Assembly: GCF_006345805.1 (NCBI RefSeq)
Contig: NC_042997.1
Span: forward strand, 52,886,001-52,950,000
Reading direction: 5' to 3'
From: Octopus sinensis
Taxonomy: Eukaryota
Length of the DNA: 64,000 nucleotides
Shown here piece by piece: positions 2,812 through 44,530 of this stretch (position 1 is the stretch's first letter; every line of letters starts with the position of its first letter). The notes under the pieces were generated by a model. It was given only the letters and a program-made list of their open reading frames with translations, searched no databases and had not been told where the DNA came from. The position numbers and the translations under genes were made by a program.

Positions 2812-3018
2812 ACTTAGAAACACATAAATGTGAAACAAGGTGGAAAAAAGAGTACTCAAATACCAGTGGTAGAGTAATATGCTTTATTTTATCAGCATAA
2901 AATTCAACAAAATCTGTTACTCTGAGTTTCTCGTTGCCGTTCATCAGGTCTGATGAACGGCAACGAGAAACTCAGAGTAACAGATTTTGTTGAATTTTCT
3001 GCTGCTTAAAATAAAGTA
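2812..3018. mobile_element. Short non-autonomous Penelope-type element with partial inverted duplication, embedded in (TA)n
   Basis: Homologous to 44128-44280; perfect 49-bp inverted repeat 2899-2947/2950-2998; flanked by TA microsatellite on both sides. Confidence 0.65.
2950..2984 (+). ncRNA. Minimal hammerhead ribozyme core (mirror copy on the minus strand at 2913-2947)
   Basis: CTGATGA-A-CG-GCAA-CG-A-GAAA-CTC-A-GAG-TA: CUGANGA and GAAA boxes, short helix II with GNRA loop, near-palindromic helix III, UA cleavage site; helix I 5' strand missing at the hairpin axis. Confidence 0.65.
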
Positions 3019-3222
3019 TATATACATATATATATAATACATATATATATATACATATATATATACATATATAATACATATATATATATATATACATATT
3101 ATATATATATATATATATATATATATTATATATTATATATATATATATATACATACGTATACATATACATCATACATACATACATACATACATACATACA
3201 TACATACATACATACATATATA

Positions 3223-3322
3223 CATACGTAGATGAACTTGAACGCTACGGTTATCTGTTCACCCACTCATATATATGTGAGTGAACACATAAACGTAGCA
3301 GTCAAGTCCAACTACGTACGTA
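3223..3322. repeat. Imperfect ~100-bp palindrome (small MITE-like hairpin)
   Basis: TACGTAG..ACTTGA..GCTACG..TGTTCAC pairs with GTGAACA..CGTAGC..TCAAGT..CTACGTA. Confidence 0.55.
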
Positions 3323-4599
3323 TTCAGAGTTCTTTTTTTCCTTAGGAAAAACAAATATAATTGAAATAAAATGTTGACTTGATGTTGTCATGCGTTAGTA
3401 AGCCGAGTGTGATGACGTGCCTATCAAAGGGTAATTTACTGAATTTCAGTGCAAAATTAATGAAGTGTTAATTAGAGATAAAAAAATCTTTAAAAAAAGA
3501 CAGCTTATTAAACTTACTTCAAGCATACTAATAAGGATTTCTAGTATAAGTACAAAAAGCCACACATTTGGAGGTGTATGGTCGATTTAATCGACTTCAG
3601 TACTTGAGTGGTACTTAATGTACCGGCGGGATATGAATTGAGAATGTAAAGGGATGTAACTATCTGCAACAGAATTTAGTTCTAACGATATTGCCACCGT
3701 GTCGCCGTAATAGCAGTAGCATCAGCAGCAGGCGTTCAAGAATTTGGACCTGGAGATCTCCATTTCCAGCGACTTCGAGGGCCACCTCCCAGTGGTGTCG
3801 GGCGTCAACGAAGAGCCCTTGACTACAACAAGACGACCAAAGTTTTTTTTTGTTTTTTTTTCCAACGTCTGGGGTCTCCCGCCCTAAGCCCTAGACCATC
3901 CCCTAATCACCCTTACCCGTCTTGTTGCTTAACAACAACAACGACAGCAGTAGCAGCAGCAGCAGCAGCAGCAGCAGTAGCAGTAGTAGTAGTAGTATAG
4001 TAGTAGTAGTAGTAGTTGTTGTTGTTGTAATATGAACAAACGCCAGCACAGTCAAAATAATATTCAGTGACCATTAGTGAAAGTCAGGTATAAATTATAG
4101 GAGCACATTCATTCAAGACAGTGTTGGATATTTGAGGTCCGTGTTTGACAGGAGGTTTCTTTTGCATGGTTCTGAAAAATTCCCAACAGCAAACATTCTT
4201 TCGCTGTCTTGTAGAGTCCTTATTTCGGTCAGTATTTGCCAGCTGGTTAACATCACTCGAAACCAAATTTTCTTCAGACTTATTGGAGTTACTTTTTGTA
4301 TCAATATTGTCCTTTGAATCAGATGCTGTAGCGGGAATATTGTCTGGTGCTTCCCTCAACAATAACTGTCCAGTTTTTCAGTATTTTCAGTCACGTCCAA
4401 ACCACAACCTCTTTTGCAACAGCACAGCCACCAAACAGAAGAAAACTGTCTAATCTTTCCGGCCGAGAAGAGGCAACAGGGCAACTTTCACAATAGAGTC
4501 GGCCGATAACCGGGTCCGTTCCACATGCGATAGCAGCTGTTCGACATAAGTCTGCAAGTCAGCAATTCTACCTGTATTCCCGCAACTCGCAACGGCTTT

Positions 4600-5000
4600 T
4601 GGCTTTTCACAAAATTTCTCCTCTTCCGAGAGTCGCAATGGGCCCTTGAGGTAGGTGTTGAAATCCATTCTGCGTTCCGGCCCGCGAACACTGAAGCAAA
4701 GTACTGTTCAAAGGCCACACAGATCTGTTTAGTGTCGATTAACATGCACCCGTTTTGGTCCACCAAAGACCGAATTACGGCTTTGTTACCACGTTGCACC
4801 TCTGCCATTTGGTCCCATTGAACAGCTTTCGTCCCTTAAGAGCACGCGCCTAAGCTCTGACGGCATAATCTTCGTGCTTCCCATTGAAGAACTGGTTGCA
4901 TGCCAAACACCCTGTGAGCTCCTCAGATGTGATGCTTTTCTTAAGCATCTTTTCTAAGTTTTTAAGTAAAGCTTCTCTCTATTCGAGTTTTCTCTATCGC
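4600..5000 (-). mobile_element. Tx1/L1-like LINE ORF2 fragment (endonuclease-RT linker), pseudogenised
   Basis: ORF 4488-4808 AEVQRGNKAVIRSLVDQNGCMLIDTKQICVAFEQYFASVF resembles the I.SL...NG......I...F..YF..LF linker of L1/Tx1 ORF2; upstream AVRA*ARAL. Confidence 0.6.
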
Positions 5001-5009
5001 TATAACCTA

Positions 5010-5402
5010 ACTGAACCTTAATATTTGTGAAAATGGGTTTGAAAGCATAAATTACTAATGAATAATTAAAGTTTGTGTATAGTTAACTGTGGCCCTACTT
5101 CATAGCCTAAAATGAGACAAAATGTTAATTTTTTTCATATCATTTTGCCAACATCTGGTGTCATGTTAGCGTCATTATTGTTATTTTATGCTTACATCTA
5201 GCTTACATCTAGCATTTATATTTAATGGCATTATTGAGGTTTTGTGCATTCAACTACTTAAACCTACTAGAATTATACTCGCGAAAATTTTGCATTTGAT
5301 TAATCTCTTATTCCTGCCAAAATAGGCCGGGGACCGCGAGGCCTCCAAAAAATGGCCAGGGGACCGCGAAGCAAAACTTTCGAAAAAGGTTGAGAGCCAC
5401 TG
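5010..5402. mobile_element. hAT (Charlie-type) DNA transposon end; left boundary approximate
   Basis: Terminus GGTTGAGAGCCACTG (reverse complement CAGTGGCTCTCAACC) followed by GTCTAGAT, the NTCTAGAN Charlie-type target; subterminal GGGGACCGCG repeats. Confidence 0.65.
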
Positions 5403-6546
5403 GTCTAGATAACATCTTGATGGCCCAATGCAGATTATCCATGTTCACAATATGTGGGAGACCATCGTAAATATATAGCTTTGAATTACAGATACCATCC
5501 ATCGAAAAAGAGATAAGCTACCCTTATAGTGGACTAGTTCTTTATTGAAGCACCAATAGAATGAAATATAAGGTGACATTAGTATAGTTTGAACTCGAAA
5601 CGTCAAGAGCCGAGACGAATAATACGAAGTTATCTATCCGACGCCTTAACGATTCTACCAATTCACCATCTGACAGTTATGGGTATCTTCAATAATAGAA
5701 ATCGTTTATTATTTCAGTTTCAAAATTCATGGAATGTTGGAAAGGACGTGACTATTCGACTGCCAACATTACCAAAGCAACATTTCTCTGGACATCAATT
5801 TGTACCGAAATACTGAATACATTAGTATTTATGAAAGTGCACGAAGTATAATATAATTGCACGATCTTAACGGATCTGAATGATATGTGGTCTGTAACAG
5901 ATCGCCAGCTGTAAAACTCTAGCTTCCTCTTTCCTTTCTATATAAACATGATAATTACGTACATGCACGATCTCGCTTACAGGGAGACACGAAAACACAC
6001 ATACTTAACATACTAAAACACACGTATACATATGCTACATAATACACACACGCCCACACGCACTCACACATGTGCGCACGGCTGTTTTTATACATGACTA
6101 TGCGCAAAAATAAACATGAATATATTATGTATAAGAATGTATATGTATATAATCATACATAAAAAACAAGCACACGCCAAACACACACACACACATACAC
6201 ACACATACACACAAACACACACACATACACTCAAACACACACACACATGAATATATATAAATTTATGAGCATGTGCGTGCGCTCACGTATGTGTCGCATG
6301 CCGGAGTGTGTTGTGCGGTGATCAGCTAAACAGAGAGAAGTTATAGCTGGAAGGTAGGGTATCTGTGGGTCAGGCTTCGTCATTCGATCAGCTATCTACT
6401 TGCTATAGAACTACTCGATCAGGGTTGACCCTGGGCTACACAATAGCTACATCCACAAGTGCCTCATGACATCATGCACTGTAATGATTGCCATATGATA
6501 TCAGATGCTTTTTCTAAGCTTTCAGTCGTTATCTATTATTCCTTTC

Positions 6547-43101: not shown

Positions 43102-43296
43102 CTCTCTCTGTTCACCGAGCGTTAAGCTAATATATTCCTTGTGCACGTCCTCTTGTTGTCCGTTAATTTTATTATTCGTTTGTTTTTTTTTCTAGTTGAT
43201 TGTTTATTTGAATTGACTGTGTGTGTGTGTGTGTGTGGTGTGTGTGTGTGTGTGTGTGTGTGTGTGTGTGTGTGCTTGTGTGTGTGTGTATAGATA

Positions 43297-43500
43297 TCAA
43301 ATTTTGATACAAAGCCAGCAATTTCAGGGGAGGGTAAATCAATTACTTTCGATTCCAGTGGTCAGCTTGTGCTTATTTTATAATCCGAAAAGATGAAAAG
43401 CAAAGTCGACCTCATTTGAGTTTGAACCCAGAACCTAAATACGGACGAAATGCTGCTATGCATTTTGTCCGGCGTGCTAACTATTCTGCCAGTTCACCTT
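43297..43500 (-). mobile_element. Degenerate SINE family B
   Basis: GATGAAAAGCAAAGTCGACCTC..TTTGAAC..CGGCGTGCTAAC. Confidence 0.7.
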
Positions 43501-43589
43501 ACACGTACACGCACACTCGCGCACATATATATATATATATACATACATACATACATACATACATACATACATACATACATACATACATA

Positions 43590-43975
43590 GGCACAAGAGT
43601 GGCTATGTGGTAGGAAGCATGCTTCACAACCACATGGCTCCGGATTCACTCCCACTGTATGGCACCTTGGGCAAGTGTCTTCTACTATAGCCACGGACCG
43701 ACCAAAGCCTTGTGAGTGCATTTGGTGGACGGAAACTGAAAGAAGCCCGTCGTATATATATGGATTTTTGTGTGTTTGTGTTTGTCCTCCCACTATCGCT
43801 TGACAACCGATGTTGGTGTGTTACGTCCCTGTAACTTAGCAGTTCGGCAACAGATACCGATAGAATAAGTACTAGGCTTACAAAGAATAGGTCCTGGGGT
43901 CGATTTGTTCGATTAAAGGCGGTGCTCCAGTATGGCCACACTCAAAATGACTGAAACAAGTAAAAGAATAAAAGA
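43590..43975 (+). mobile_element. SINE family A, full length
   Basis: Head, internal microsatellite and tail all match family A. Confidence 0.9.
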
Positions 43976-44127
43976 ATTTACATACATATATATATAATAT
44001 ATATATATATATATATATATATATGTATATATATATATATATACATACACATACACACACACACACACACACACACACACACACATATATACATATATAT
44101 ATATATATATATATATATATATATATA

Positions 44128-44280
44128 CGCAAGCACATAAATGCTAAACAAGGTGGAAAAAATAGTACCAGAATACCGGAAGTAGAGTAATATGCTTTTT
44201 TTTATTATTATTAAAACTGCAAAAGCATCATCAAAATCCGATACTCAGAGTTTCACGTTCTCATTCGTCGGGCAGTTGTG
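44128..44280 (-). mobile_element. Short hammerhead-containing Penelope-type element in (TA)n, same family as 2812-2947
   Basis: Shares CACATAAATG..AAACAAGGTGGAAAAAA..GTAGAGTAATATGCTTT; minus-strand core CCGACGA-ATGAGAACGT-GAAA-CTC-T-GAG-TA at 44242-44271. Confidence 0.65.
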
Positions 44281-44399
44281 ATATATATATACATATATAT
44301 ATATATATATATATATATATATGTGTGTGTGTGTATGTATATATATATATATGTATATATATATATATATATATATATATATATATATATATATATATA

Positions 44400-44530
44400 A
44401 CATTAAATTGAAGGATTACTGAATACATTTGGTAGAGTACAAATTTATTATTATTTAAGAAGAAGAATTTTGACAGTGACTTCGAAATTTCGGCCAGCTA
44501 AAACAGCCTGATGATGGCTTAGCTGTTCTT
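44400..44530 (-). mobile_element. Short Penelope-type element with a hammerhead split by an inversion
   Basis: Minus strand TTAGCTGGCC-GAAA-TTTCGAAG-TC-ACTGT...AATAAA..TACTCTACC..(TA)n; plus strand ACAGC-CTGATGA-TGGCTTAGCTG. Confidence 0.55.

What the first reader, a model, noticed from the sequence alone, without database searches (positions are those of the whole stretch)
2812..44530. Dispersed family of short hammerhead-bearing elements, often at (TA)n: a candidate retrozyme/mini-Penelope system
Seen: at least seven hammerhead-like loci in 64 kb (2913-2984, 6547-6594, 28575-28626, 32905-32958, 43069-43101, 44242-44271, 44473-44525), most with short or palindromic helix III (CTCAGAG, ACATGT, AACGTT, AAATTT, TTCGAA). 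Three short elements share the layout hammerhead, AATAAA-like signal, TACTCTAC motif, then (TA)n. An RT+GIY-YIG Penelope relic with its own 3' hammerhead-like motif also sits between (TA)n tracts. Inference: several non-autonomous ribozyme RNAs are mobilised by Penelope RT/endonuclease. I cannot tell whether these specific families are already described.
Basis: partly seen in the sequence, partly recalled or inferred. Interest (0 to 1): 0.75.

Follow-up and report, generated by a model that had tools for sequence, protein, structure and literature searches.

The report
Leader stubs of Penelope jumping genes
Most of these short hammerhead-ribozyme repeats are end pieces of protein-coding Penelope-like jumping genes rather than a separate family of mobile ribozyme RNAs, and many are likely copies of just the uncut front end of the gene's messenger RNA, so this is largely known biology with one useful clue to how the elements copy themselves.

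Summary
The motifs are real but are not one family. 2814-3016 is a head-to-head pair of ends of an intact Hydra-type Penelope-like element (PLE; 97.7% identity, 711-aa ORF; 3,201 exact copies of its tail motif). 44128-44280 is an older subfamily. 28584 is the 3' hammerhead of the window's own RT+GIY-YIG relic, with a family-wide U3-A8 core. The 43.0-kb family links, through a sister subfamily and one locus, to a GIY-YIG C-terminus. 44400-44525 has no parent ORF found and its motif is split across strands. 6553 and 32909 are decayed singletons lacking the cleavage site. TACTCTAC is half of a hairpin in the PLE 'tail' (mRNA leader). In 99 copies sampled by position, 40 reach furthest to a 10-nt window at an initiator-like site upstream of the intact hammerhead, where a full-length copy also starts; 5 start at the cleavage site. 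So the short copies are likely reverse transcripts of the uncleaved leader. No tandem arrays were seen, so retrozyme status is unsupported. PLE hammerheads, tails, inversions and (TA)n targeting are published; this scan noted leader stubs before in another genome. Cleavage and start site are untested.

The parts
2814..2947 (-). Family A1, tail-bearing arm: hammerhead core 2947-2941, predicted cut after 2918, AATAAAG, then the ~70-nt tail with the TACTCTAC hairpin, then (TA)n
   Evidence: 97.7% to both pLTRs of intact element L124; 3,201 exact tail-motif copies, control 0
2948..3016 (+). Family A1, inverted tail-less arm: core 2950-2956, ends at AATAAAG in (TA)n
   Evidence: 98.6% to L124; same end in 50 of 65 inverted arms
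6547..6594 (+). Decayed hammerhead-like singleton: 6-bp stem I, core 6553-6559, weak stem II, CA in place of UH
   Evidence: 1 of 1 candidates in the genome search; no relative in 388 held loci; 7 of 200 shuffles
25894..28671 (+). 5'-truncated, frameshifted Neptune-type PLE (family D): RT ~25.9-26.9 kb, CX4CxxC linker and CCHH GIY-YIG to stop 27652, three 102-bp repeats 27933-28239, 3' UTR, ends in (TA)n
   Evidence: Pfam; 91-96% aa to L236/L237 frames; collinear with L236-L238
28575..28633 (+). 3' pLTR hammerhead of family D: U3-A8 core 28584-28590, 5-bp stem II, palindromic helix III, predicted cut after 28620
   Evidence: descriptor; core in 18 of 20 loci by pattern; optional ~31-nt tail in 5 of 20
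32905..32958 (+). Decayed hammerhead-like locus: 4-bp stem I, core 32909-32915, 4-bp stem II, TG in place of UH; family not found
   Evidence: 0 of 200 shuffles, post-hoc descriptor; genome search swamped by a neighbouring repeat; no relative in held loci
43018..43217 (+). Family C1 copy, ~200 nt between microsatellites: core 43072-43078, extra base before 4-bp stem II, CG helix III, 3-bp stem I
   Evidence: 1,612 first-look candidates; sharp 5' boundary in 25 aligned copies; 77.6% over 67 nt to sister subfamily C2
44128..44280 (-). Family A2, older subfamily of A: core 44271-44265 (U4C), degenerate stem I, tail, (TA)n
   Evidence: 74% to L124 pLTR; inverted arm in 17 of 30 relatives
44400..44503 (-). 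Family B main arm: 3' half of the hammerhead (GAAA, 8-nt palindromic helix III, UC), tail with TACTCTAC hairpin, (TA)n
   Evidence: 1,252 first-look candidates; relatives carry the whole motif with a 6-bp stem I
44504..44525 (+). Family B short inverted piece carrying the core (44508-44514) on the opposite strand
   Evidence: sequence

Best explanation
The short hammerhead elements are terminal pieces of protein-coding Penelope-like retrotransposons (shown for three of four families), and many are likely reverse transcripts of only the uncut front end of the element's messenger RNA. Shown: an intact family-A element reads start site, hammerhead core at +17, predicted cut after +46, AATAAAG at +83, tail end at +154, ATG at +222, stop at +2357, then a 3' UTR that repeats the same terminal piece at +3326. 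Shown: insertions end at either of two fixed points (AATAAAG or tail end) in (TA)n, often as two head-to-head arms, one with each end. Shown: 5' ends pile up at an initiator-like site just upstream of the core, where a full-length copy also begins. Inferred: that site is the transcription start; the RT-endonuclease binds the tail hairpin, nicks (TA)n, starts copying inside the RNA at one of the two points, and when it starts in the 5' leader it runs off the RNA's start after 80-150 nt. Inferred: the template was usually uncut, because most copies span the intact hammerhead; the ribozyme would need a partner for its palindromic helix III and is likely not what defines the copied unit. Whether the second arm comes from the other DNA strand being primed or from fold-back is not resolved.
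For: Window arms match both pLTRs of intact elements at 97.7-98.6%; ORFs of 662-766 aa in 10 of 10 fetched loci chosen for long frames. Longer copies run from the hammerhead back through the 3' UTR into the endonuclease C-terminus (L002, L013). In 99 copies taken by position: tail arm starts at -47..-38 from the cut site in 34, furthest arm in 40; within 3 nt of the cut site 3 and 5; more than 99 nt upstream 17; inverted arm in 65, 50 ending at one point. Full-length L125 starts at -46 directly after (TA)n. Tail is optional on ORF-bearing 3' ends: 11 (+1 variant) with, 13 without, 5 not reached, of 30. The commonest hammerhead variant is the same in ORF-bearing and short copies. Family C2 chosen by 3' end only: 63 of 86 elements align from within the first 20 nt of the unit; at least 9 loci extend upstream, one (L429) about 1.84 kb to a frame 64% identical to a CCHH GIY-YIG protein, E 3.3e-7. 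[quoted passage not shown]
Against: No RNA 5' ends were seen: only contigs of runs of guessed type were available. A stall site at the A-run or at the hammerhead fold would also cluster 5' ends. No cap-derived extra G was seen by eye at joints starting at the presumed start. Up to 5 of 99 loci do start at the cut site, and L231 and L311 fold back exactly there. A second hammerhead variant (11 in the 99-locus sample) was absent from the 40 ORF-bearing loci, which were selected by likeness to one young protein. Family B has no ORF link in 30 loci and 4 extended regions. The C link rests on one locus of a sister subfamily and on low-complexity alignments of 67-82%. The 99 are young tail-bearing copies from one contig, include one duplicated pair (L255/L256), and long 5' extents are minimum values.
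Confidence: 0.75

Rival explanations
1. The short copies are ordinary 5'-truncated copies primed at the 3' pLTR, and the cluster is a stall or joining hotspot (A-run, hammerhead fold, microhomology), not the RNA's start.
For: At least 17 of 99 copies must come from the 3' pLTR since they run far upstream; starts smear from -47 to +32; extreme truncation is typical of PLEs (PMC8557442).
Against: The cluster has a sharp upstream edge at -47/-46 with few starts at -99..-48 (6 of 99 tail arms); a full-length copy begins at the same base; an initiator-like motif sits at the edge in both A1 and C2 (consensus recalled).
Confidence: 0.2
2. One reading: independent non-autonomous ribozyme RNAs (retrozymes or mini-Penelopes), transcribed from their own short loci, possibly as circles, and mobilised in trans. 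A weaker form is that some leader stubs, which keep the start site and tail hairpin, are re-copied on their own.
For: Family C has near-fixed ends, 0 of 25 and 1 of 30 inverted arms, one abutting partial tandem (L361) and one with a microsatellite spacer (L340); about 18 of 30 C2 copies start with a (GT)n tract by eye, which a short master next to (GT)n could explain; family B has no ORF found; retrozymes derive from pLTRs (bioRxiv 10.64898/2026.07.22.740005).
Against: ORF-bearing parents for A and D, and an endonuclease link for C; no array of three or more units in any locus examined; ends unrelated to the cut site; the C2 unit folded as a circle is only 47% paired.
Confidence: 0.15
3. The motifs are chance matches in AT-rich DNA.
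For: Core plus GAAA spacing is at chance level; 6553 is a singleton with 7 of 200 shuffles matching.
Against: Strict and relaxed descriptors exceed all 200 shuffles; five loci belong to families that keep the fold with compensatory changes.
Confidence: 0.02

Closest known systems
Hydra-clade PLEs (Craig et al. 2021, PMC8557442; passages, section 11, supplement part 2 and search hits seen), including Hydra-1_Obim and Hydra-2_Amil
   Same: RWK and DKT motifs, C-terminal GIY-YIG without CCHH, CxxC and CxH around the conserved E and N, (TA)n targets, inverted 5' copy, tail on one end; the A1 hammerhead has the same stem I and nearly the same helix III as the Hydra-2_Amil row (by eye).
   Different: Unit 3,325 nt against <3 kb; second cysteine of the CxCX5C linker is F; tail ~70 nt against 30-40; hammerhead differs from Hydra-1_Obim, so a separate family (by eye; no alignment or tree made).
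[quoted passage not shown]
   Same: Type I, palindromic helix III, extra base after position 9, U3-A8 core variant, mostly single dispersed motifs ascribed to truncated PLEs, pairs on opposite strands.
   Different: Here parents and 5' ends are mapped; A1 lacks the G10.1-C11.1 pair and has a 2-bp stem II.
Poseidon PAc of Anolis (Frangieh et al. 2024, PMC11167929; parts 1-2 of 4 read)
   Same: Two internal RT start points bounding the tail, AT-rich target, uncut RNA as template.
   Different: In PAc the hammerhead overlaps the ORF start and RT starts inside the ORF; here both lie in a 221-nt non-coding leader. The parts read do not report copies ending at the transcription start.
Non-LTR retrozymes (PMC7229834, passages; bioRxiv 10.64898/2026.07.22.740005, parts 1-3 of 5)
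   Same: Short, AT-rich, hammerhead-bearing, related to pLTRs, many monomers.
   Different: Defined by tandem units each with a hammerhead and by circular RNA; no arrays seen here and coding parents exist for most families.

Membership tests
Hydra-clade PLE (family A) | RWK and DKT motifs in a single ORF with RT (YRDD) | tested here: met
   RWK at 37, DKT at 113, YRDD at 344 of 711 aa; Pfam itself gave no hit
Hydra-clade PLE (family A) | C-terminal GIY-YIG without CCHH, with CxxC and CxH | tested here: met
   YTG 598, CKLC 667, CRH 695; 45% to a second family with a weak Pfam GIY-YIG hit
Hydra-clade PLE (family A) | CxCX5C linker | tested here: not met
   C-N-F-X5-C in all 6 ORFs printed; canonical in the second family
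Hydra-clade PLE (family A) | Length under 3 kb | tested here: not met
   3,325-nt unit with ~970-nt 3' UTR; a tendency in the paper, not a strict rule
Hydra-clade PLE (family A) | (TA)n insertion, pLTR hammerhead, inverted 5' copy, optional tail | tested here: met
   TA-type 3' flank in 80 of 99 (18 other or unparsed, 1 leader), inverted arm 65 of 99
Hydra-clade PLE (family A) | Placement in the clade by RT tree | not tested
   no tree built; reference proteins seen only in the supplement text
Neptune-type PLE (family D relic) | DKG, RT, CX2-5CxxC linker, CCHH GIY-YIG at the C-terminus | tested here: met
   (DKG in L236 frame)
Neptune-type PLE (family D relic) | Neptune rather than Nematis by tree | not tested
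   no tree built
Minimal PLE hammerhead | Conserved core, stems I and II, palindromic helix III, UH | tested here: met
   family level for A, B, C, D; in the window only 28584 and 43072 pass the strict descriptor
Minimal PLE hammerhead | Self-cleavage as a dimer | not testable with these tools
   two-strand folding pairs helix III between A1 copies (-4.6 kcal/mol gain) but gave non-hammerhead pairings for C and D
Non-LTR retrozyme | Tandem units each with a complete hammerhead | tested here: not met
   no array in 99 A1, 30 A2, 30 B, 20 D or the C loci examined; one abutting partial tandem and one spaced pair in C2; samples, not a census
Non-LTR retrozyme | No coding parent of the same sequence | tested here: not met
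   A and D have ORFs, C one endonuclease link; B unresolved
Non-LTR retrozyme | Abundant circular RNA | not testable with these tools
   contigs only, run type guessed

The most novel reading that the evidence does not exclude
The genome holds thousands of in-vivo footprints showing that Penelope-type RT starts inside its own mRNA leader at a tail hairpin kept from corals to this animal, copies the uncut hammerhead and runs off at the transcription start. Each stub is a portable start-site-plus-RT-signal cassette: landing in front of a promoter-less copy it would rebuild the pLTR, and copied again on its own it would be the seed of retrozymes. The hammerhead would then act as a dimer-dependent brake on transcripts, not as the maker of the copied RNA.
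Probability: 0.3. Interest if true: 0.6.

Novelty: new member of a known kind. Interest (0 to 1): 0.33.

Why it matters
It explains why genomes like this one are full of lone minimal hammerheads without invoking a new mobile RNA, and warns against calling them retrozymes. The mapped ends support, from genomic copies, the in-vitro result that PLEs copy uncut RNA from internal start points, and give a young intact family with a defined start site, two RT start points and a hairpin, which makes the open questions of hammerhead function and pLTR regeneration directly testable.

Tried and rejected
First descriptor allowed no extra base before stem II and no core covariants and missed all seven loci; replaced. 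The repeat finder was swamped by microsatellites. The 32780-33100 search returned only a neighbouring repeat among 40 scored of 365, so 32909 is untested at genome scale. An exact pattern for the C1 5' end found one place. I first read family C as non-autonomous and dropped that as best reading after upstream extensions and the endonuclease link. An ORF relic downstream of C copy L155 is separated by a mariner piece and was rejected as a link. Word-index search with the 46-aa fragment found nothing; of 3 full-search hits one is a repetitive protein and was dropped. PDB search gave nothing under E 0.17. An apparent allele difference between arms seen in the first 30 loci vanished in the positional sample: arms agree at five variable sites (at most 2 discordant pairs per site), which does not separate fold-back from twin priming. 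No RNA holder listed; contigs gave no ends. The 102-bp repeats gave no descriptor hit. PMC5785218 was not held. Paper searches found no report of these families or of PLE copies clustering at the start site; Repbase, Dfam and most subscription journals were not searchable, and the preprint's supplements were not seen.
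Full report
Setting. The window lies on a 213-Mb contig of a 2.72-Gb animal genome, rich in microsatellites, SINE-like repeats and mariner relics. The taxon is likely an octopus; this is my inference from repeat content and earlier scan notes and was not checked.

Observation. All seven loci are present but differ in quality. A minimal-hammerhead descriptor built from the features in PMC4209133 gives 2 strict and 3 relaxed hits, above all 200 shuffles, while core-plus-GAAA spacing alone is at chance. 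6553 and 32909 lack UH and pass only post-hoc descriptors. The 44473-44525 motif is split between strands by an inversion. 2913-2984 is a head-to-head pair whose joint cuts helix I.

Family A (2814-3016; 44128-44280). Thirty best genomic matches showed varied 5' ends and an inverted arm in 20. Two ran 1.3-1.5 kb upstream into an endonuclease C-terminus. That peptide had 11,940 first-look candidates, and 10 of 10 loci picked for long frames held ORFs of 662-766 aa. The window arms match both terminal copies of L124 at 97.7-98.6%, the 44128 copy at 74%. The 711-aa protein has RWK, DKT, YRDD, CKLC and CRH and lacks CCHH, as described for the Hydra clade, but one linker cysteine is F and the unit is 3.3 kb. 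Pfam gave no hit; 1,073 homologues were found, almost all unnamed. The published octopus Hydra family has a different hammerhead, so this family appears to be another one; no tree was built.

What the short elements are. In L124 the order from the presumed start is core +17, cut +46, AATAAAG +83, tail end +154, ATG +222. The tail motif occurs 3,201 times exactly. I took the first 100 listed places, all on contig 1, minus the window's own (n = 99, one duplicated pair kept). Tail arms start at -47..-38 from the cut site in 34, at -37..-4 in 24, within 3 nt of the cut in 3, further 3' in 15, at -99..-48 in 6 and further upstream in 17; taking the furthest of both arms, 40 fall at -47..-38 and 5 at the cut. 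Sixty-five have an inverted arm, 50 of them ending at one point; arm starts correlate (rho 0.68) and arms share alleles. Full-length L125 begins at -46 straight after (TA)n, and the upstream edge matches an initiator consensus (recalled). With the published internal RT starts and use of uncut RNA and a start site inside the pLTR, the simplest reading is run-off copying of the leader. This step is inferred; no RNA ends were available.

The TACTCTAC motif. It forms the 5' side of a bulged hairpin found by pattern in 22 of 30 A1, 16 of 30 A2 and 14 of 30 B loci, with different loops; it is the predicted fold for the A1 window copy but not for the more mutated A2 and B window copies. By eye a similar arrangement follows the hammerhead of coral Hydra-2_Amil. 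It is likely the RT binding or start signal, and it ties B to Hydra-type elements although no ORF was found for B.

Family D. 28575 is the 3' end of the window's own relic, continuous from 25894 to 28671 and collinear with other copies. The core is the U3-A8 covariant described in PMC4209133, present in 18 of 20 loci by pattern, with an optional tail in 5 of 20.

Family C. The 43.0-kb copy belongs to an old subfamily with a sharp 5' boundary and no inverted arm in 25; a younger sister has the same boundary in 30 of 30 best matches (biased to full length). Among 89 loci picked by a 3'-end pattern (of 265 matches), 86 held the element and 63 aligned from within its first 20 nt. One abutting partial tandem was found. 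At least 9 extend upstream into a shared CA-rich region, and L429 reaches, about 1.84 kb upstream after removing a mariner insert, a 46-aa frame 64% identical to a CCHH GIY-YIG protein. So C is most likely also a PLE end, with an initiator-like site at its boundary; the link rests on one locus.

Comparison and verdict. Hammerheads in pLTRs, lone motifs from truncated copies, opposite-strand pairs, (TA)n targeting, inversions and tails are all in print. Retrozymes are defined by tandem units and circles; no array was seen in my samples, and circles could not be tested. The finding is new members of a known kind. What adds value is the end map pointing to uncut leader RNA as template and the shared tail hairpin; six paper searches found no report of this, within a limited library. 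Papers seen: PMC4209133 parts 1-2 of 4; PMC11167929 parts 1-2 of 4; PMC8557442 passages, section 11, supplement part 2 and search hits; the 2026 preprint parts 1-3 of 5; PMC7229834, PMC6765202 and PMC2377424 passages; PMC5785218 not seen.

Noticed in passing
window 56481-56736: Near-perfect 256-bp inverted repeat with TTAGGG-like tracts in its arms; MITE- or foldback-like.
   Followed up: no
window 53104-53922 and 18933-19292 (-): Tc1/mariner transposase fragments (HTH_48; DDE_3).
   Followed up: no
window 33927-34370, 39588-39825, 44828-45300, 50965-51137, 54863-55211, 62064-62480; and 11466-11668, 28692-28894, 43598-43785, 61036-61230, 62946-63149: Two abundant SINE-like families, the first often as tandem pairs of 184-217 nt.
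   Followed up: no
window 27933-28239 and ~28450-28490: Three 102-bp repeats in the family D 3' UTR are shared by other copies; a partial second copy of the hammerhead 5' half lies 113 nt upstream in most of 20 loci.
   Followed up: partly
L200-L229, 5' joints: About 18 of 30 C2 copies have a (GT)n tract between the (TA)n target and the element, and L226 repeats the first 10 nt; could be a short master next to (GT)n or telomerase-like repeated copying of the RNA end (speculation).
   Followed up: partly
L237:1125-2753 (-) and 3087-4490 (+): A second Hydra-type family with the canonical CxCX5C linker, 45% identical to family A, in an inverted pair nested with a family D copy.
   Followed up: partly
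family A hammerhead, position 11.1: The base closing stem II is U in the old subfamily and G or A in the young ones, leaving a 2-bp stem in the ORF-bearing variant.
   Followed up: partly
L402/L432 upstream; L436; L007 ~330-400: Further Neptune-like ORF relics of other families and another hammerhead family seen by eye.
   Followed up: no
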